IMG/VR virus record: IMGVR_UViG_3300046048_000769
Strand: one strand, 5' to 3'
DNA: 36,343 bases
Origin: a virus
Shown: positions 2,029-32,273 of the stretch, piece by piece
How positions within the stretch are numbered: position 1 is the first letter of the stretch
How the letters are laid out: every line of letters starts with the position of its first letter
Position numbers and translations under genes: made by a program
Notes under the pieces: model-generated
Databases searched by the model: none
What the model saw: the letters and a program-made list of their open reading frames with translations, nothing else
Told to the model about the DNA's origin: nothing

Positions 2029-2442
2029 CTATTTCCTCAGTAATTTCAGGTGTCCTGTGATCCTGTCAACGTCCTCAGCATAGTTAGGACCGATACCTAC
2101 GCATGTATTGGTCGGCCCGTCAAAGGTCGTTAGCCCGCTATCGGTAATCAGATGAGCCGTCAAACCCGCGTCCTTGGCCTGCTGATATACCTCCAGTAAC
2201 TCCTCCTCGGACTCCACTTTGAGGACCACCTTTTTGAAAATACCAAGAAGCCACGCGGCCATTTCGGGCGTAACTTCGATATTTGCGGAGTATGTCCCAT
2301 GAGGCGTTTCCGCCAACTTTTCACGGACGATATTACTCAAGCCAGCCAATGCCGCATGACCCGCCTGGGCCATTTTCTTCCCGACATTCGCTTCCTTGAG
2401 GTCATTTCGCCAAATGATGACCTGTTTTACCTCTCTGGACAT
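2029..2442 (-). CDS. pth2: peptidyl-tRNA hydrolase, PTH2 (archaeal/eukaryotic) family
   Basis: VIIWRNDLKEANVGKKMAQAGHAA...GLTAHLITDSGLTTFDGPTNTCVGIGP...ITGHLKLL aligns with conserved PTH2 blocks (human PTRH2: [23 protein letters not shown] ... GIGPGP...VTGHLKL). GGAGG SD. Confidence 0.85.
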   Translation of the reverse strand: MSREVKQVIIWRNDLKEANVGKKMAQAGHAALAGLSNIVREKLAETPHGTYSANIEVTPEMAAWLLGIFKKVVLKVESEEELLEVYQQAKDAGLTAHLITDSGLTTFDGPTNTCVGIGPNYAEDVDRITGHLKLLRK

Positions 2443-3522: not shown

Positions 3523-3780
3523 TCAGTCTTCCGCATTCTCTTCGGACTCGGTTTCACCTTTCCACTTCTTCCACCAAGTCTTCATGAATTGCATCGTGAG
3601 AAATGTAACAACAGCGTTGACAAGAGCTTTGGCAATCACATACAGCAGCGGGGCCGCTACCTCAATGTATTGTGCTTCAACTTCTTGTTGATCTTCTAGC
3701 TTTTCTTGCTTTTTATCATCAGTATCCAAAACCCCTCCTATTGGGAAATGCAGTGGAGCCGGTGGGAGTCGAACCCACAA
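3523..3780 (-). CDS. small membrane protein; N-terminus uncertain because it overlaps the tRNA 3' end
   Basis: ORF has a hydrophobic segment (AAPLLYVIAKALVNAVVTFLTMQF) and an acidic tail. The first 27 nt overlap the tRNA at 3754-3837. Confidence 0.3.
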   Translation of the reverse strand: MWVRLPPAPLHFPIGGVLDTDDKKQEKLEDQQEVEAQYIEVAAPLLYVIAKALVNAVVTFLTMQFMKTWWKKWKGETESEENAED

Positions 3781-3837
3781 TCTGGTATGGTCCTCACGGA
3801 TTTCAGCATACCTATTTTCCCATTAAACTACGGCCCC
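3754..3837 (-). tRNA. tRNA-Phe(GAA)-like with a 10-nt insertion in the anticodon loop (putative short intron)
   Basis: Manual fold of the revcomp: acceptor GGGGCCG/CGGCTCC (one G-U pair), D-loop AATGGGA, anticodon stem GGTATG/CATACC enclosing a 17-nt loop CTGAAAT-CCGTGAGGAC (canonical Phe loop CUGAAAU plus 10 extra nt), variable AGATT, T-arm GTGGG-TTCGACT-CCCAC, discriminator A. CCA is not encoded. Confidence 0.6.
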
Positions 3838-4188
3838 GATTTCTTCTCCCCATTGTCGATAAATCTCTTCCATCTTCGGAACACTCAAGCCAACAAATCC
3901 CATGTCCGGCTCGCCGTCTTGCCCTCCAATTCTGCTCAAGGCTTCCGAGTTCATTCGTTCAATAATGTGCTGTGGAGGATCAATCAACTTCGGTATTGCA
4001 TTGAAAGCAAAATGCACAGACTCAAAAGGCAAGTCTTGCATCAAGCGAAACAAGTGCGGAGCCGCTTCACTCCCCATTTCCAAGACAGCCCGATAATCCG
4101 GGTCATCATGCTTGTGAAAAGAGAAATGAGAATTTCTGTTGTGATAAGCCAAAACACGTTCTTTAACTTCGTCATACGTCACACTCAT
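3823..4188 (-). CDS. hypothetical protein (121 aa)
   Basis: ORF whose ATG overlaps the metG stop in an ATGA arrangement. Its TAA stop falls inside the tRNA D-loop. Confidence 0.5.
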   Translation of the reverse strand: MSVTYDEVKERVLAYHNRNSHFSFHKHDDPDYRAVLEMGSEAAPHLFRLMQDLPFESVHFAFNAIPKLIDPPQHIIERMNSEALSRIGGQDGEPDMGFVGLSVPKMEEIYRQWGEEIGAVV

Positions 4189-5864
4189 TTGTTGATCCTT
4201 GGAAACAAAGTTACTTTATCCAAAAGAATAACTGGACCATCCATATCCATGTGTTCCAAATCTTCATCGTGATACATTCTATTTAGATATTTCCAATCCA
4301 GTTTATCTTCGACCTGAGTGAGCGTCAGACTTGCATCATGGGTGAATGGGAAAAACGTCCGATAAATCGTCTCCGACGTTTGCGGCAAAAAAGGTTTCAA
4401 TAATACACTCACCAAACGCAAACAAGAAACGCAATTTCGCAAAACTACTGCCAACTTGGTTGCTTCCTGATCGTTGTTTGCAAGCTCCCAAGGTTTCATT
4501 TGTTCAACATATCCGTTGCAATTGTCCAGAAGCTCCCACACCATTTGTAAGGCATGATTGTATTCATAGGCTTCAACATGCAGCTTGTAACGATCCAGCC
4601 ACTCACTGCTGGCCCATGACACCTGTCCGCTCCTGGCATATGGATTTTCACTGTCGTTGAGTCGAATTTCCGTCCTGGGAATGTAGGGCAGCGACCTGTC
4701 AAAATACTTGGTAATCATCGCGTTTACGCGGCTCACCAAGTTACCCAGGTTATTGGCCAAATCAGCATTGTAAACATCAACAAAATGCTCATAGCTGAAT
4801 TCGCTATCGTCGTGATAACGACACTTGGCAAGAAAATAGTATCGGTAAGCATCGACTCCGAATTGTTCGACAATATCAGAGGGATTCACAAAGTTCCCAC
4901 TTTTGGCGATTTTCGCCAAATTATTGTCTTTTCGTTGATAGAGAAAGCCATGAGCGTAGATTTTACGCGGCAAATCAATGGCCGGACCATCATCGAAAGC
5001 GTCGTTGTAGGCCATAATCATGGCAGGAAAGATGATACAGTGAAAGCGGGTAATGTCTTTCCCGATCAAGTGGCAATCAGCAGGCCACCATTTTTTGAAT
5101 TTTTGATGATCGGCACCAAACCCAATGCCTGTCAAATAATTGAGCAATGCGTCAAACCAGACATAAATTACCTGAGAATCATCCCAAGGAATCGGAATTC
5201 CCCACCCCTGATTTGTGCGACTGATGGAAATATCTTCCAGAGGACCGTTCAGAACGCTCATAACCTCGTTGTAACGGCTTTCTGGCTCAATCGTGAGTTC
5301 TGATACGGATTTACCGTCCGGCCCTACACGACGATGCAGGAGCTTCAGAAGCTCTTCTCGGAATTCACTCAGAGCGAAGAAATAATTTTCTTCCTCAACC
5401 TGCTCAATTTGCAAATTCGGGTGATTTGGACATTTGCCGTTGGTGAGCGAGTTTGGAGTTTTGAACTCCTCACAACCGTTACAATAAAGGCCAACATAGG
5501 GTTTTTTGTAGATATACCCCGCTCGGTACACAGTTGAAATAAATTCGTTCACCCCTTGGTGATGACACGGCTCCGAAGTCTGAATGAAATCGTCGTTGGA
5601 AATATCCAACTGTTTCCACACTTCCTGAAATCGACGGGCCATATCGTTGACGTATTTCTGCGGTCCTCCCGATCCAGGCTTTGCCACGGCTGCTGCGACT
5701 ATTTTTTGAGTATTTTCGTCATTCCCCATCAAAAAATAGACATCATCCCCGCACATGCGGTGCCATCGAGCCTGCACATCAGCACCGAGTTTTTCAAAAG
5801 CGGTGCCAATATGCGGCAACGCATTTGGATAATCAATCGCACAAGTAATGTAAAACTTACTCAT
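4185..5864 (-). CDS. metG: methionyl-tRNA synthetase, core enzyme (no C-terminal dimerisation/tRNA-binding extension)
   Basis: Class I Rossmann N-terminus (YITCAIDYPNALPHIGTAFE), a Zn-knuckle C-x2-C...C-x-N-H insertion, a KIAKS (KMSKS-like) loop and an anticodon-binding helical domain. Length 559 aa. Confidence 0.9.
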   Translation of the reverse strand: MSKFYITCAIDYPNALPHIGTAFEKLGADVQARWHRMCGDDVYFLMGNDENTQKIVAAAVAKPGSGGPQKYVNDMARRFQEVWKQLDISNDDFIQTSEPCHHQGVNEFISTVYRAGYIYKKPYVGLYCNGCEEFKTPNSLTNGKCPNHPNLQIEQVEEENYFFALSEFREELLKLLHRRVGPDGKSVSELTIEPESRYNEVMSVLNGPLEDISISRTNQGWGIPIPWDDSQVIYVWFDALLNYLTGIGFGADHQKFKKWWPADCHLIGKDITRFHCIIFPAMIMAYNDAFDDGPAIDLPRKIYAHGFLYQRKDNNLAKIAKSGNFVNPSDIVEQFGVDAYRYYFLAKCRYHDDSEFSYEHFVDVYNADLANNLGNLVSRVNAMITKYFDRSLPYIPRTEIRLNDSENPYARSGQVSWASSEWLDRYKLHVEAYEYNHALQMVWELLDNCNGYVEQMKPWELANNDQEATKLAVVLRNCVSCLRLVSVLLKPFLPQTSETIYRTFFPFTHDASLTLTQVEDKLDWKYLNRMYHDEDLEHMDMDGPVILLDKVTLFPRINK

Positions 5865-7089: not shown

Positions 7090-7437
7090 TCACTGACGAC
7101 CAAAATAGCCGGAATACAGGCCCTTTCTATCACCTGCGTCACGCGGCCCCGCGTTGCTAATACGCTCCGCGAATATGCACTGTTCGCCGACAAATGTCAA
7201 GTTAAATTCGCTTTCACAATTTTCACACATGACATTTTGCGACATGCCGCCAGAAGGCCCGGATAGCAACCCGCCCTGTTCACAATCAGGACAGGTCACA
7301 TACCCTTGGGCCAAACCACTGATGAAATGCCGTTCTTCCTCGGTCAATTTTTCGTGAGCCTCAGAAGAACGGTTGACGATACTACTCCCCATCGACCGAA
7401 GTCCTCGACAGAGTGTTACTGTTACGGTTGGTGCCAC
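7090..7437 (-). CDS. Zn-ribbon protein (CPDC ... CENC); true start probably the internal Met near 7392
   Basis: Two C-x2-C pairs. The annotated start overlaps the MVP 3' end by 55 nt. Confidence 0.45.
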   Translation of the reverse strand: MAPTVTVTLCRGLRSMGSSIVNRSSEAHEKLTEEERHFISGLAQGYVTCPDCEQGGLLSGPSGGMSQNVMCENCESEFNLTFVGEQCIFAERISNAGPRDAGDRKGLYSGYFGRQ

Positions 7438-27283: not shown

Positions 27284-28228
27284 TTATAGTGTGGAAAATC
27301 CTTTTAGGCACGAATGCAATCGCTGAAAAAACTCAATACTCTCCAGCTTAACAAGCGTTTCCGACGCCGCTGCTCTTTCGGCTTCTGTTTTGTCAAAAAG
27401 AGCCAAGGCTTCATCGACTTTTTCGCTCAGGTCAGAATAATCAGATTTGCAAAATACCACTTGGCCTATATCCACTGGATCAGGCCATGTGTAGCACCTG
27501 CGATCATGAGAGTTGTGAATGGTTTCTGGCTTAATCAATACGCAACCAAGAGCAACCGCCTCAAAGTCACGACACGAAATAGGACCAAAACCATCTGCAC
27601 AAATTGCCACCTTTGACCTACTGGTTAAATCGACAAAGCTCGTCTTCGACATTCGGCCTTCACGGTCTTTAGACGCACCAACGAGACGATGGATGGTCGC
27701 GGGAAGATTCATTGCTGCCTGTGTCGCAAGATCACGATGAGCAACGACTTTGGGATTGCTATATGTGGCGTAATGCACACACATCAAATCAAAGCATCTA
27801 AACTTGCGATATTTCCCATATTGCTTGAATTGAAGGAAACTATCAACCCACGGAAAACTGTTGATCCCAATGGCGTTGGGACCAACCTTTCTTTGAAAGG
27901 CAGCTATTGACAACTTAGCGGCCCAATCATCGCCGACACGTTTGGCGATATAATCGGGAAAAGGGTTGTCAAATGGCAGCCACGCAACGTAATTGGGATT
28001 AGCCACCCAATCGCAATGATAAAACAACTCGCCTTGAGCGTGAACAAAGACGAAATCCGCTTCGCCAGGAGAGTTTACCCATTCAATATAATCGTTGGGC
28101 ACTTCATCCATGATAAAGCGTTGCCACAATCGACCTCTCTCGTTGCCTTCTGTTTTGCAATATATTTTCATGATTTTATCATAGTAGCCGAGACAGGATT
28201 TGAACCTGAAACCTTCCAGGAGAGGCAC
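27284..28228 (-). CDS. hypothetical protein, possibly glycosyltransferase-like; true start probably MKIYCK at ~28171
   Basis: Long ORF whose annotated N-terminus runs into the tRNA-like gene. The function call is weak. Confidence 0.45.
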   Translation of the reverse strand: MPLLEGFRFKSCLGYYDKIMKIYCKTEGNERGRLWQRFIMDEVPNDYIEWVNSPGEADFVFVHAQGELFYHCDWVANPNYVAWLPFDNPFPDYIAKRVGDDWAAKLSIAAFQRKVGPNAIGINSFPWVDSFLQFKQYGKYRKFRCFDLMCVHYATYSNPKVVAHRDLATQAAMNLPATIHRLVGASKDREGRMSKTSFVDLTSRSKVAICADGFGPISCRDFEAVALGCVLIKPETIHNSHDRRCYTWPDPVDIGQVVFCKSDYSDLSEKVDEALALFDKTEAERAAASETLVKLESIEFFQRLHSCLKGFSTL

Positions 28229-28287
28229 AAGTGGGAACTATAACCCACCCTGCTTCACTGGCTGCTGGACCGTTCAGCTTCTCGGCC
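28185..28287 (-). tRNA. tRNA-like gene (103 nt) with ~30-nt internal insertion (class II tRNA or intron-containing); isotype unresolved
   Basis: Manual fold of the revcomp: acceptor GGCCGAG/CTCGGCT (G1-U72), D-arm GCTG-AACGGTC-CAGC, T-arm TCAGG-TTCAAAT-CCTGT. Between the D- and T-arms lie 53 nt, including the hairpin GTGGG-TTATAGTT-CCCAC, instead of ~23. Confidence 0.45.
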
Positions 28288-28288
28288 A

Positions 28289-28573
28289 TTACCACCATCG
28301 TAAATCCTTGAACGACTTTTCAAACTGATAATCGGGCACAGGATCAAGCCATCGCTCTGCCCAATGCCATTGACCTAAATCCAGGTCAATGCGATAGCAA
28401 TCTTCTACTTCAGAAACCTGTGCAATGACAGCTTCTTGATTGAAGTAGACCCTCATGGAAGCATTGCATTTAGGTGAAAGTTCACACTCTTCTGGCGTCA
28501 GCTTCCGAATGCGAACCTTGTCACCTACCTTAAACTTAGGTTTCAATTGTCGTGACCACCTTATTTTTGACAA
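28289..28573 (-). CDS. hypothetical protein (94 aa)
   Basis: ORF only. Confidence 0.45.
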   Translation of the reverse strand: MSKIRWSRQLKPKFKVGDKVRIRKLTPEECELSPKCNASMRVYFNQEAVIAQVSEVEDCYRIDLDLGQWHWAERWLDPVPDYQFEKSFKDLRWW

Positions 28574-29393: not shown

Positions 29394-29621
29394 CTAAAGC
29401 CAAGTTTCAATGATGTTGGGATCGTCTTCCGGGTGACGATCCATCCTGTGCAATCCCGGTGGAAGTTGACGACGAATATCATCCAACGAATCCCCGGTGA
29501 AATGGTCCTCGGTGATAGTCACCGTGCCTGGACCAATTTCGTTTCTCCTACAAACAAAGACACCAGGGAAATCCCTGGTGCCAGTGCCGAAAACGACCCA
29601 TATATCGAGTTTGCCGCTCAT
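29394..29621 (-). CDS. small hypothetical protein
   Basis: ORF whose start overlaps the frr stop. Confidence 0.4.
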   Translation of the reverse strand: MSGKLDIWVVFGTGTRDFPGVFVCRRNEIGPGTVTITEDHFTGDSLDDIRRQLPPGLHRMDRHPEDDPNIIETWL

Positions 29622-30199
29622 TTCATTCTCTCGATTTTAGCTGCGATAATGTTGTCGATTTCTTGAATGTACTTGTCGGTCATCTTCTGCAAATCATCTT
29701 CCATACGACGAAGTTCGTCTTCACTGAGAAAAGTATCTTTTTTGAACTGCTGCCGAAACTTCTTGCGAACATTTCTGACAGCGACCTTAGCTTCTTCTCC
29801 CAATGCTGAAAGTCGTGCGACCACCTTTTGACGATCCTCTCCACATGGAGGCGGAACGCTGACGACGACTTCGGTTTTTGAAAATACAAATGCCTCAAAA
29901 CCTGCTGCCTTGAGTCCTTTCTCAATGGCAAACCTATTCTGAGCATCGTGTGGCTCAATCCGAATTCGTCCGCCCTGCTTTGACGTTTGGGCAAGGTGCC
30001 CAATCGGCATTGGCTGACCATAACACACAACTCTCACGGAGTCGATCACAGCAGAAGTAATCAATCCGTGTCTGATGCCGACCAATTGGTCCGACAGAAA
30101 ATCAAGAGACTTTTCCATCAAGTCTCTTGGTTCCTTCAAATTATCCCCAGGTACACATTCCAGTTTCCTCCGTTTAGTTCGAGAATTAGTAAGACCCAT
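29618..30199 (-). CDS. frr: ribosome recycling factor
   Basis: EEAKVAVRNVRKKFRQQFKK...LSEDELRRMEDDLQKMTDKYIQEIDNIIAAKIERM aligns with the RRF C-terminal helix bundle (VAVRNVRRDANDK...ISEDD.RR.QDDVQKLTD). The N-terminal arm resembles the RRF beta-domain. Confidence 0.8.
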   Translation of the reverse strand: MGLTNSRTKRRKLECVPGDNLKEPRDLMEKSLDFLSDQLVGIRHGLITSAVIDSVRVVCYGQPMPIGHLAQTSKQGGRIRIEPHDAQNRFAIEKGLKAAGFEAFVFSKTEVVVSVPPPCGEDRQKVVARLSALGEEAKVAVRNVRKKFRQQFKKDTFLSEDELRRMEDDLQKMTDKYIQEIDNIIAAKIERMK

Positions 30200-32156: not shown

Positions 32157-32273
32157 AGTTGACGGAGGGAATCGAACCCACCCTTGCCTGCGGACCTGGA
32201 ACCATCCATTTCGGGAATCGAACCCGACTGGCCTCCCTCTCCGGGAGCCGTGCGACCACTACACTACGTCAAC
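32157..32273 (-). tRNA. degenerate tRNA-like element with an internally duplicated T-arm (possible pseudo-tRNA or tRNA with non-canonical insertion)
   Basis: Revcomp: acceptor GTTGACG ... CGTCAAC (perfect 7 bp), D-arm GTGT-AGTGGTC-GCAC, no canonical 7-nt anticodon loop (CTCCC-GGAGA-GGGAG hairpin instead). Two T-arm-like copies (TCGGG-TTCGATT-CCCGA and GTGGG-TTCGATT-CCCTC) lie 46 nt apart. Confidence 0.35.

What the first reader, a model, noticed from the sequence alone, without database searches (positions are those of the whole stretch)
3754..3837. tRNA-Phe(GAA)-like gene with a 10-nt insertion inside the anticodon loop
All arms fold canonically, but the anticodon stem GGTATG/CATACC encloses 17 nt: CTGAAAT, a textbook Phe loop, plus CCGTGAGGAC. 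The extra 10 nt can form a mini-hairpin TCC-GTGA-GGA with a GNRA tetraloop. Bacterial and phage tRNA introns are normally large group I introns. Introns this short, 3' of the anticodon, are an archaeal/eukaryotic feature that depends on a splicing endonuclease. Either this phage or its host uses an unusual tRNA-processing route, or the gene is a non-decoding tRNA-like RNA.
Basis: seen in the sequence. Interest (0 to 1): 0.65.

Follow-up and report, generated by a model that had tools for sequence, protein, structure and literature searches.

The report
Phage alanine tRNA-like mini-tmRNA gene
The odd "phenylalanine tRNA with a mini-intron" is more likely a conserved phage gene for a tRNA-shaped RNA that accepts alanine but cannot read codons, a relative of the tag-less mini-tmRNA of mycobacteriophage DS6A that is thought to interfere with or replace the host's rescue of stalled ribosomes.

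Summary
An 84-nt tRNA-shaped gene lies on the minus strand at 3754-3837, with a 17-nt loop (CUGAAA-UCC-GUGA-GGA-C) closed by a 6-bp stem (Rfam tRNA 49.4 bits).

The "tRNA-Phe with a 10-nt intron" reading does not hold.
- The acceptor end is the alanine/tmRNA type (G1:C72, G2:C71, G3:U70, G4:C69, A73). None of 11 phage tRNA-Phe controls has G3:U70.
- Three orthologues in related huge-phage contigs keep the enlarged loop with strong covariation elsewhere. The most distant one has CAAAA, with no U33 and no GAA.
- There is no bulge-helix-bulge motif, and no EndA, RtcB or Rnl gene in the window.

The arm plan is an outer helix, a 5' A-rich bulge, a 3-4 bp GC mini-helix, a short loop and a 1-2 nt 3' bulge. 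The known "TLD-only" tmRNA of mycobacteriophage DS6A shares this plan and the same acceptor stem. So do an unannotated 78-nt RNA in 82 Streptomyces phage genomes and 77-nt RNAs at the same locus in other huge phages. It also resembles the tmRNA H2a/GAA-bulge/H2b junction.

The window also encodes SmpB, PTH2 and RRF.

Best reading: an alanine-accepting, non-decoding, tag-less tmRNA-like RNA. It is a new cloverleaf variant of a known kind.

The parts
3754..3837 (-). Whole 84-nt tRNA-shaped RNA gene (alanine-type acceptor, non-decoding arm). No CCA is encoded.
   Evidence: Rfam tRNA 49.4 bits. Rfam tmRNA 33.2 bits, E 6.6e-10, matching the ends only. ARAGORN. Own CM R1 100.9 bits. Covariation across four orthologues.
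3831..3837 (-). Acceptor stem 5' strand GGGGCCG. G3 lies at 3835.
   Evidence: Pairs with 3755-3761. G1:C72, G2:C71, G3:U70 and G4:C69 are invariant in 4/4 orthologues, while 5:68 and 7:66 covary. G1:C72, G2:C71, G3:U70 and A73 are also invariant in 13/13 family members.
3755..3761 (-). Acceptor stem 3' strand CGGCUCC. U70 lies at 3757. The discriminator A73 is at 3754.
   Evidence: The acceptor stem is identical to that of the DS6A TLD-only tmRNA.
3814..3828 (-). D arm: GUUU / AAUGGGA / AAAU, with G18 and G19 present.
   Evidence: The 4-bp stem covaries: UA changes to CG at two pairs in L133. This feature makes the RNA tRNA-like rather than tmRNA-TLD-like.
3784..3812 (-). The 'anticodon' arm. 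It has a 6-bp outer helix GGUAUG/CAUACC, which encloses the 17 nt.
   Evidence: MFE folds. 3 of 6 pairs change on both sides across orthologues.
3801..3806 (-).
   Evidence: It is CAAAA in L133, ACGAAA in DS6A, and GAAA, preceded by covarying helix bases, in Streptomyces phages. The Rfam tmRNA consensus has a 'GAa' 5' bulge between H2a and H2b.
3791..3800 (-). Mini-hairpin UCC-GUGA-GGA (3 bp plus a GNRA loop). C at 3790 is the 1-nt 3' bulge.
   Evidence: CC/GG is invariant in 4/4 orthologues, and the loop is GUGA, GAAA or CAAGU. DS6A, Streptomyces phages, L137 and L140 have the equivalent mini-helix.
3762..3778 (-). T arm: GUGGG / UUCGACU / CCCAC.
   Evidence: 4 of 5 pairs change on both sides across orthologues.
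14802..15257 (-). Phage-encoded SmpB (151 aa, with the basic C-terminal tail). It is a possible protein partner; this is inferred, not shown.
   Evidence: Pfam PF01668, E 3e-55. It is also present in the syntenic relative L001.
2029..2442 (-). PTH2 peptidyl-tRNA hydrolase (context: ribosome rescue and recycling module).
   Evidence: Pfam PF01981, E 4e-29. It is conserved near the RNA in L001, L084, L133 and L137.
29618..30199 (-). Ribosome recycling factor (context).
   Evidence: Pfam PF01765, E 2e-34.
4185..5864 (-). MetRS gene, one small ORF upstream of the RNA. This gene order is conserved.
   Evidence: Pfam. The order MetRS, one ORF, then the RNA is seen in the window, L001, L084, L133, L137-139 and L140.

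Best explanation
Window 3754-3837 (minus strand) encodes a conserved, tRNA-shaped RNA. It is very probably charged with alanine by the host AlaRS, because it has G3:U70, A73 and G1-G4 as in tRNA-Ala and tmRNA. It has no anticodon loop. In its place is a bulged arm of about 10 bp: a 6-bp helix, a 5' bulge CUGAAA, a 3-bp GC helix, a GNRA loop and a 1-nt 3' bulge. The 'GAA' is part of a conserved A-rich bulge and is not an anticodon.

The RNA belongs with the tag-less (TLD-only, CDS-less) tmRNA-like RNAs of phages, whose described member is in mycobacteriophage DS6A. It differs from that member in keeping a true D stem and a 5-nt variable loop.

Inferred mechanism: the gene is co-transcribed with the MetRS operon. 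RNase P and 3' processing plus CCA addition mature the transcript, and AlaRS then alanylates it. The RNA then acts on stalled ribosomes or on the trans-translation machinery. It may compete with host tmRNA, for example for SmpB, EF-Tu or empty A sites, so that phage products are not degradation-tagged. It may also give tag-less rescue together with the phage's own SmpB, PTH2 and RRF.

Shown here: the structure, its conservation, the alanine identity elements, the loss of decoding features, and the family resemblance. Inferred: charging, partners and the effect on trans-translation.
For: 1. Structure and conservation. The gene scores 49.4 bits on Rfam tRNA. Orthologues occur in L001, L084 and L133, always after MetRS plus one ORF. 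The alignment gives 98% paired cells and 11 of 25 pairs with double changes, and 0 of 500 shuffles reach the observed value.

2. Alanine identity. G1:C72, G2:C71, G3:U70 and A73 are invariant in 13/13 family members. As a control, G:U at 3:70 was found in 13/14 phage tRNA-Ala, 0/11 tRNA-Phe and 4 of about 310 others. BLAST hits to the 3' half fall on annotated phage tRNA-Ala genes.

3. Not an anticodon. L133 has CAAAA-GCC-CAAGU-GGU-C in the same 17-nt loop.

4. Family.
- CM R1 finds the DS6A TLD-only tmRNA at JN698994 28478-28557. It has an identical acceptor stem (GGGGCCG/CGGCUCC) and the same arm plan.
- It also finds 77-nt G3:U70 RNAs at the same locus in other huge phages (L137-139, L140).
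- It also finds a 78-nt element in 82 Streptomyces phage records, where the arm helix covaries.
- In Rfam E-value mode the window RNA, the Streptomyces element and L137 all hit tmRNA RF00023 end-to-end, at 33.2, 41.6 and 24.6 bits.

5. The Rfam tmRNA consensus has H2a, then a 3-nt 5' bulge 'GAa' with a 1-nt 3' bulge, then H2b. This matches helix/..GAAA/NCC...GGN/N/helix.

6. Context. SmpB, PTH2 and RRF are in the window. An RF-like gene and RlaP are next to it in L001.

7. Literature. [quoted passage not shown] PMC11915505 says the same in substance.
Against: - The window RNA has a covarying 4-bp D stem, A26 and a 5-nt variable loop.
- It lacks the tmRNA hallmarks: the '..GGAUUCGAC' D-loop analogue and 'GGAC' before the T stem.
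- It scores higher as tRNA (49.4 bits) than as tmRNA (33.2 bits, below the gathering score of 47), and the tmRNA match covers only the acceptor and T arms.
- In tmRNA, SmpB occupies the space of the D stem and anticodon arm, which this RNA fills itself. SmpB binding is therefore doubtful for the cloverleaf form.
- The resemblance to the H2a/H2b junction rests on a short motif.
- There are only four cloverleaf-type sequences, and three of them are close relatives.
- Some relatives lack any such RNA after MetRS (L085, L135).
- There are no expression, charging or binding data.
- I could not scan the rest of any related genome for a standard tmRNA.
Confidence: 0.58

Rival explanations
1. It is a pre-tRNA-Phe(GAA) whose 10-nt insert (UCCGUGAGGA, or a shifted register) is a mini-intron. 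An unknown phage or host endonuclease plus a ligase would remove it to give a 74-nt decoding tRNA.
For: C32-U33-G34-A35-A36-A37 is a perfect 5' part of a Phe loop in the window, L001 and L084. A73 fits PheRS, and G20 is present in two of the three (L001 has C20). Relatives carry RNA-repair genes: RlaP and an RF-like gene in L001 and a Ro60-like gene in L085. The same window holds a second tRNA-shaped RNA with a long insert.
Against: G3:U70, G1-G4 and A73 would make a spliced product an Ala acceptor that reads Phe codons. L133 keeps the insert but has no U33 and no GAA. The insert is conserved rather than drifting, and its size and position are fixed. There is no bulge-helix-bulge and no anticodon-intron pairing. 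No EndA, RtcB or Rnl domain was found in about 50 window ORFs. The same arm plan occurs in RNAs that lack a D stem and cannot be decoding tRNAs (DS6A and Streptomyces phages).
Confidence: 0.05
2. It is an alanine-charged, non-decoding tRNA used away from the ribosomal A site. It could be an Ala donor for a tRNA-dependent transferase (cell wall, lipid or protein alanylation). It could be a sponge for AlaRS or EF-Tu. It could be a decoy for a host tRNA-targeting defence nuclease.
For: The acceptor and T-arm minihelix with G3:U70 is sufficient for AlaRS (established knowledge). Decoding features are lost. The phages concerned are rich in translation and RNA-repair genes that point to conflicts over tRNA. 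Many neighbouring ORFs have no known function.
Against: No Fem/MurM-like, MprF-like or L/F-transferase-like domain was detected in the window. This reading does not explain the conserved bulge and mini-helix plan shared with a tmRNA-derived RNA. It does not explain the tmRNA-type hits. No anticodon-nuclease target loop is preserved.
Confidence: 0.17
3. It is a decaying tRNA pseudogene. A tRNA-Ala or tRNA-Phe suffered a 10-nt insertion and has no function.
For: The folding energy is unremarkable (z = -1.08). No own promoter or terminator was detected. The gene is absent from some relatives.
Against: Compensatory changes occur in all four stems across contigs whose MetRS is only 50-70% identical. 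The insert is conserved with GNRA-preserving changes. G3:U70 is invariant. The position is conserved.
Confidence: 0.03

Closest known systems
TLD-only (CDS-less) tmRNA of Mycobacterium phage DS6A (tmRNA Website tmID 11587; Mao et al. 2009, as cited in PMC4131195 and PMC11915505)
   Same: It is phage-encoded and about 80 nt long. It has an identical acceptor stem GGGGCCG/CGGCUCC with G3:U70 and A73, a canonical T arm, no tag reading frame and no pseudoknots. Its central arm follows the same plan: a 6-bp helix, a 5' bulge ACGAAA, a 4-bp ACCG/CGGU helix, a tetraloop and a 2-nt 3' bulge.
   Different: DS6A has the tmRNA-type D region (..GGUCGAC) with at most a 3-bp pairing, and only 3 nt before the T stem. 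The window RNA has a covarying 4-bp D stem, A26 and a 5-nt variable loop, which makes it a true cloverleaf. The window phage also encodes its own SmpB. DS6A is a 60-kb temperate phage, whereas the window belongs to a huge-phage lineage with relatives of 346-462 kb.
Standard bacterial tmRNA (Rfam RF00023) with SmpB
   Same: It shares the Ala acceptor identity and the T arm. Its H2a / 'GAa' 5' bulge with 1-nt 3' bulge / H2b junction resembles the arm. An SmpB gene is present in the window.
   Different: The window RNA has no mRNA-like domain, resume codon or pseudoknots. It scores 33.2 bits against a gathering score of 47, and only the ends align. A D stem is present, and the 'GAC...GGAC' junction is absent.
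Mitochondrial (jakobid) and some plastid tmRNAs that lack a tag reading frame (Jacob et al. 2004; PMC11915505)
   Same: They show a reduction to a tRNA-like domain that co-occurs with SmpB. They are presumed to help with non-stop ribosomes without tagging.
   Different: They are of organellar, not viral, origin. No sequence comparison was made here.
Bacterial tRNA-Ala
   Same: It shares the G1-G4 / G3:U70 / A73 acceptor, the cloverleaf with D stem, the variable loop and the T arm. The 5' half of L133 (GGGGACGUAGCUCAGUGGUAGAGCG) is close to canonical tRNA-Ala (the comparison with the E. coli sequence is from memory).
   Different: The window RNA has no 7-nt anticodon loop and no NGC anticodon. 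It has a 17-nt structured loop instead.
Archaeal/eukaryal intron-containing pre-tRNAs (BHB or anticodon-intron helix, position 37/38)
   Same: The insert begins after nucleotide 37 in three of four sequences, and its size (10 nt) is near the lower limit of such introns.
   Different: There is no bulge-helix-bulge and no anticodon-intron pairing. The insert is conserved. The context is bacterial phage, with the nearest cellular relatives of the MetRS in Planctomycetota. No splicing endonuclease or ligase was found.

Membership tests
TLD-only / CDS-less tmRNA-like RNA of phages (DS6A type) | Alanine acceptor identity: G3:U70 with A73 (plus G1:C72, G2:C71) | tested here: met
   Invariant in 4/4 orthologues and in 13/13 family members, including DS6A. 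The control shows specificity for tRNA-Ala.
TLD-only / CDS-less tmRNA-like RNA of phages (DS6A type) | No tag reading frame, resume codon or pseudoknots; total size about 65-85 nt | tested here: met
   It is 84 nt, and every nucleotide is accounted for by four stems and a 17-nt structured loop.
TLD-only / CDS-less tmRNA-like RNA of phages (DS6A type) | Central helix with an A-rich 5' bulge and a short capped helix (an H2a/H2b-like stub) in place of an anticodon stem-loop | tested here: met
   The same plan is seen in the window, L001, L084, L133, L137, L140, DS6A and Streptomyces phages. The tmRNA consensus has the 'GAa' bulge.
TLD-only / CDS-less tmRNA-like RNA of phages (DS6A type) | tmRNA-type D region (unpaired, ..GGAUUCGAC) and a direct 'GGAC' link to the T stem | tested here: not met
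   The window RNA has a covarying 4-bp D stem and a 5-nt variable loop. These model positions are deleted in the tmRNA alignment.
TLD-only / CDS-less tmRNA-like RNA of phages (DS6A type) | Binds SmpB and/or inhibits trans-translation | not testable with these tools
   Only context is available: SmpB is encoded at 14802-15257. The literature statement concerns a similar TLD molecule.
Standard tmRNA (RF00023) | Reaches the Rfam gathering score and has an mRNA-like domain with a tag CDS | tested here: not met
   It scores 33.2 bits against 47, and 310 model positions are replaced by 44 nt. ARAGORN finds no tmRNA in the window.
tRNA-Phe(GAA) | 7-nt anticodon loop with U33 and the G34-A35-A36 anticodon, conserved among orthologues | tested here: not met
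   The loop is 17 nt. GAA and U33 are absent in orthologue L133.
tRNA-Phe(GAA) | Acceptor stem free of identity elements for another synthetase (no G3:U70) | tested here: not met
   G3:U70 is present. 0/11 phage tRNA-Phe in the control set have it.
tRNA with an archaeal/eukaryal-type protein-spliced intron | Bulge-helix-bulge (3-nt bulge, 4-bp helix, 3-nt bulge) or an anticodon-intron helix at the splice sites | tested here: not met
   The fold gives a 6-nt bulge, a 3-bp helix and a 1-nt bulge. No complement to GAA lies in the insert.
tRNA with an archaeal/eukaryal-type protein-spliced intron | Splicing endonuclease (EndA/Sen) and ligase (RtcB/Trl1/Rnl) available | tested here: inconclusive
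   None was found among about 50 ORFs of the 36-kb window. The window is the whole contig but only part of a genome probably larger than 300 kb, and the host is unknown.
tRNA (RF00005), generic cloverleaf | Acceptor, D, anticodon and T stems, with U8, A14, G18, G19 and the T-loop GUUCRA | tested here: met
   49.4 bits against a gathering score of 29. All four stems covary.
Group I intron in a bacterial or phage tRNA | Catalytic core of about 200 nt or more | tested here: not met
   The insert is 10 nt. There are no Rfam intron hits.

The most novel reading that the evidence does not exclude
The cloverleaf form may be a 'self-decoding' alanyl-tRNA, an all-RNA equivalent of tmRNA plus SmpB. In all four cloverleaf sequences the 3' strand of the mini-helix (GGA or GGU) is followed by exactly two nucleotides (C37, and C38 paired to G32) and then the 39-43 strand. 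It therefore sits exactly where anticodon positions 34-36 would be. Its partner strand (UCC or GCC) would then be a built-in 'codon', capped at the wobble end by a tetraloop and joined back to position 32 by the A-rich linker. The arm would have the length of an anticodon arm already bound to its codon. Such an RNA could satisfy the decoding centre only when the A site holds no mRNA. It could add alanine to stalled chains without SmpB and without a template, possibly repeatedly, which would give Ala tails.
Probability: 0.07. Interest if true: 0.88.

Novelty: new variant of a known kind. Interest (0 to 1): 0.5.

Why it matters
If the reading is right, tag-less tmRNA-like RNAs are not a curiosity of one mycobacteriophage. 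They would be a recurrent phage tool, found here in three settings:
- a lineage of huge phages that also carry SmpB, PTH2, RRF and several aminoacyl-tRNA synthetases;
- at least 82 cultured Streptomyces phage genomes, where the gene has never been annotated;
- phage DS6A.

This points to phage control of ribosome rescue and of degradation tagging during infection. The Streptomyces phages make the idea directly testable in the laboratory.

The cloverleaf variant links tRNA-Ala and the tmRNA tRNA-like domain in one molecule, which bears on how tmRNA-like RNAs evolve.

It also corrects an attractive but wrong inference. There is no evidence here for archaeal-type mini-introns in bacterial viruses. 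Annotators should be aware that ARAGORN labels such genes 'tRNA-???' with a Phe-like anticodon.

Tried and rejected
- Close relatives in public phage collections. Megablast and blastn of the region against INPHARED found nothing at E 1e-5. A MetRS-based scan and exact loop scans of IMG/VR found no relative. All 68 hits to CTGAAATCCGNRAGGAC were coding-sequence chance matches.
- Pattern scans of metagenome and GTDB genome contigs returned only the already known JAANMV010000001.1 contig plus chance hits.
- A scan for the conserved D-arm sequence found only unrelated phage tRNAs such as Gly and His.
- Y RNA / YrlA idea. It was prompted by the Ro60-like genes in L085 and in StarPlatinum, and I rejected it. 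The RNA ends lie at the acceptor stem rather than at a Ro-binding stem, and no Rfam hit was found.
- K-turn and sarcin-ricin-loop mimicry of the arm. I considered both from the sequence. The 3' strand G-GNRA..GGACC resembles 23S ACGAGAGGACC. I dropped both because the 5' strand does not fit and the motif varies among family members.
- A trans-acting stop codon (the UGA in CUGAAA). I rejected it because the strand polarity relative to the P/A sites is wrong and UGA is absent from L133.
- MetRS as the charging enzyme through the CAU in the arm's 3' strand. I rejected it because CAU is absent from L137, L140 and DS6A.
- The promoter and terminator scan was uninformative.
- Literature searches for short tRNA introns or expanded anticodon loops in phages gave nothing relevant.
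- Mao et al. 2009 is not held in the library.
Full report
**1. The observation**

Read 5'-3' it is:

GGGGCCG UA GUUU AAUGGGA AAAU A GGUAUG CUGAAA UCC GUGA GGA C CAUACC AGAUU GUGGG UUCGACU CCCAC CGGCUCC A

- ARAGORN reports 'tRNA-??? (gaaa)'.
- Rfam tRNA scores 49.4 bits (gathering 29), with 19 nt where the 7-nt loop should be.
- The MFE fold reproduces the 6-bp stem, the 6-nt 5' bulge, the UCC/GGA helix with a GUGA loop and the 1-nt 3' bulge.
- Stability alone is unremarkable (z = -1.08).

The description is correct.

**2. Genomic setting**

- The window is a whole 36,343-bp metagenomic contig.
- It carries a translation island:
  - MetRS (4185-5864)
  - PTH2
  - an HNH endonuclease
  - a major-vault-protein-like gene
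  - SmpB (14802-15257)
  - IleRS
  - a ThrRS-like class II synthetase
  - RRF
  - NADAR
  - RNase H
  - a normal tRNA-Arg(UCU)
- The nearest cellular MetRS sequences are from Planctomycetota, at about 50% identity.
- Syntenic relatives are contigs of 72-462 kb, which is the huge-phage range.
- No EndA, RtcB or Rnl domain was found in about 50 ORFs.

**3. Orthologues**

Walking from MetRS homologues gave three orthologous RNAs, each lying after MetRS plus one small ORF.

| Locus | MetRS identity | Loop and notable features |
|---|---|---|
| L001:11919-12001 (JAANMV010000001.1, 346 kb) | 70% | same loop; tetraloop GAAA |
| L084:1379-1461 | 62% | loop ...GAAA...; one C·A mismatch in the stem |
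| L133:9937-10019 | 50% | G-CAAAA-GCC-CAAGU-GGU-C-C |

- On the four-sequence alignment the cloverleaf gives 98% paired cells.
- 11 of 25 pairs change on both sides, and 0 of 500 shuffles reach the observed value.
- Slid controls give 39-57% paired.
- G1:C72, G2:C71, G3:U70, G4:C69 and A73 never vary, while 5:68 and 7:66 covary.
- The 17-nt loop is kept in size and plan.
- In L133 it has no U33 and no GAA.

**4. Identity**

- The first five acceptor pairs and the discriminator match those of tRNA-Ala and tmRNA. This rests on established knowledge of AlaRS identity, in which G3:U70 is the major element.
- In a control set of about 330 distinct phage tRNAs from the loci fetched, G:U at 3:70 occurred in 13/14 tRNA-Ala, 0/11 tRNA-Phe and 4 of about 310 others.
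- A spliced product with a GAA anticodon would therefore be an alanine tRNA reading Phe codons.
- The insert is conserved, the BHB motif is absent and L133 lacks GAA.
- Taken together, these points make the intron reading very unlikely.

**5. The wider family**

- BLAST of the 84-mer against INPHARED gave an unannotated element in the tRNA arrays of Streptomyces BE-cluster phages as its best hits. That element is 78 nt long and has this layout:
  - acceptor GGGUCUG/CAGAUCC with G3:U70 and A73;
  - no D stem;
  - an 8-bp helix;
  - a GAAA bulge;
  - GCC...GG(A);
  - a T arm.
- It is present at full length in 82 records and is never annotated.
- Its helix covaries while GAAAGCCGACAAUGGA is invariant.
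- StarPlatinum also has a normal tRNA-Phe, several tRNA-Ala genes and a standard tmRNA, so the element is a separate entity.

A covariance model built from the four orthologues found three further groups:
- 77-nt G3:U70 RNAs one ORF downstream of MetRS in other huge phages (L137-139 from a 462-kb contig, and L140);
- the Streptomyces element;
- a single hit in mycobacteriophage DS6A at 28478-28557.

In Rfam E-value mode the window RNA, the Streptomyces element and L137 all match tmRNA RF00023 end-to-end, with the middle of the model deleted. The scores are 33.2, 41.6 and 24.6 bits.

**6. The known precedent**

- The tmRNA literature lists 'Mycobacterium phage DS6A (TLD only)'.
- The 2025 database paper repeats this and lists CDS-less tmRNAs in mitochondria and some plastids (PMC11915505).

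The DS6A RNA is:

GGGGCCG CAAUGGUGGUCGA CCGCCG ACGAAA ACCG CACG CGGU AC CGGCGG CAC GCGAG UUCGAUU CUCGC CGGCUCC A

Its acceptor stem is identical to that of the window RNA. Its arm follows the same plan: an outer helix, a 5' bulge ending in GAAA, a 3-4 bp GC helix, a short loop and a 1-2 nt 3' bulge. All family members fold this way.

The Rfam tmRNA consensus, seen in the alignment of E. coli ssrA, has a 12-bp H2a, a 3-nt 5' bulge 'GAa', a 1-nt 3' bulge and then H2b. The window's CUGAAA-UCC...GGA-C therefore looks like a truncated H2a/H2b junction. The 'textbook Phe loop' is best explained as this A-rich bulge.

**7. What is different here**

- The window-type RNA has a real, covarying D stem, A26 and a 5-nt variable loop. 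It lacks the tmRNA 'GAC...GGAC' junction.
- It is therefore a cloverleaf, and it scores better as tRNA than as tmRNA.
- In tmRNA, SmpB fills the space of the D stem and anticodon arm. Here RNA fills that space.
- Membership in the DS6A-type class is met for acceptor identity, absence of a tag and arm plan. It is not met for the D region. I file it as a new variant of a known kind.

**8. Mechanism**

Shown here:
- a conserved structured RNA;
- alanine identity elements;
- no anticodon loop;
- kinship of plan with a phage TLD-only tmRNA;
- co-location with SmpB, PTH2 and RRF.

Inferred:
- The RNA is processed from the MetRS operon transcript, since no promoter or terminator of its own was found.
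- It receives CCA and is alanylated by the host AlaRS.
- It acts on trans-translation by competing with host tmRNA, so that phage products are not tagged.
- It may also give tag-less rescue together with the phage SmpB, with PTH2 and RRF clearing the products.

I put about 0.58 on this tmRNA-related reading. I put about 0.9 on the weaker claim that this is a non-decoding, Ala-type tRNA-like RNA rather than a tRNA-Phe with an intron.

| Rival reading | Confidence |
|---|---|
| Ala donor, sponge or decoy outside the A site | 0.17 |
| Mini-intron | 0.05 |
| Pseudogene | 0.03 |

**9. Most novel reading not excluded**

- In all four cloverleaf sequences the mini-helix 3' strand is followed by exactly two nucleotides and then the 39-43 strand.
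- It therefore occupies positions 34-36, and its partner strand would be a cis 'codon' capped by the tetraloop.
- The arm then has the length of an anticodon arm bound to its codon.
- Such an RNA might be accepted only by ribosomes with an empty A site, without SmpB.
- This is geometry read from the sequence plus inference, not evidence (probability about 0.07).

**10. Limits**

- Only four cloverleaf sequences are available, and three are close relatives.
- No complete related genome could be scanned for a standard tmRNA, tRNA-Phe or AlaRS.
- The host is unknown.
- There are no expression data.
- The similarity to the H2a/H2b junction rests on a short motif.

Noticed in passing
window 28185-28287 (-): A second tRNA-shaped RNA of 103 nt sits in an intergenic gap. 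It has acceptor GGCCGAG/CUCGGCU, a D arm, a T arm and a bulged arm of about 46 nt ending in the 8-nt loop UUAUAGUU. It has no G3:U70. ARAGORN and Rfam miss it; CM R1 found it (26.4 bits). It is conserved in L149:12074-12176, with compensatory changes in the acceptor, the T stem and the inner hairpin. Its function is unknown.
   Followed up: partly
window 32157-32273 (-): A 117-nt candidate tRNA-like element with acceptor, D arm, a pentaloop 'anticodon' arm and two T-arm-like hairpins (CGGGUUCGAUUCCCG and GGGUUCGAUUCCC). It lies in an intergenic gap. It is not detectably conserved in L149 and has no Rfam hit. It may be spurious or a fused remnant.
   Followed up: partly
L109:1479-1556 (Streptomyces phage StarPlatinum MH576965 87769-87846) and 81 other INPHARED records: A conserved, never-annotated 77-78-nt Ala-type (G3:U70, A73) tmRNA-TLD-like RNA lies inside the tRNA array of BE-cluster Streptomyces phages. 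These phages also carry a standard tmRNA, a Ro-like protein, an RNA ligase and a polynucleotide kinase.
   Followed up: yes
L131:18091-18207 (= L109:1800-1916), L113:7122-7247, L121:3655-3779: Streptomyces phages also carry unannotated 117-126-nt tRNA-like genes (Rfam tRNA 33.6 bits) with an insert of about 45 nt in the anticodon region, between tRNA-Leu and tRNA-Phe/Gly. They could be a tRNA with an unusual insert or another tRNA-like RNA.
   Followed up: no
L132:246-333 (Curtobacterium phage Nonagon PQ868950): A gene annotated 'tRNA-OTHER' is 88 nt long, with a structured insert of about 23 nt in the anticodon loop and an encoded CCA. It has A3:U70, so it is not the Ala type. This suggests that enlarged anticodon arms recur in phage tRNA-like genes.
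   Followed up: no
window 3823-4188 (-) versus L001:11587-11918: The 121-aa ORF upstream runs 15 nt into the RNA gene. In L001 the orthologous ORF stops 48 nt earlier, yet the downstream nucleotides still encode the same peptide (SVPKMEEIYR.WG.EIG) in another frame. This points to a frameshift or assembly error in one contig, or to a conserved overlap.
   Followed up: no
L001:15882-17776; L085:1-237: Relatives carry a short RF-like protein (PCRF plus RF-1 domains, 210 aa) next to an RlaP nucleotidyltransferase just beyond the window's end. Another relative carries a Ro60-like vWA protein. These are RNA-repair and ribosome-rescue themes.
   Followed up: no
window 7382-10123 (-): A 913-aa protein has major vault protein shoulder and repeat domains (PF11978, E 1e-23). 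It is conserved in L001 and L002, which is unusual for a phage.
   Followed up: no
window 4185-5864, L001, L084, L133, L137-140: The gene order MetRS, one variable small ORF, then the Ala-type tRNA-like RNA is kept across MetRS identities of about 50-70%. The RNA is absent at that place in L085-087 and L135-136. The reason for the linkage to MetRS is unexplained.
   Followed up: partly
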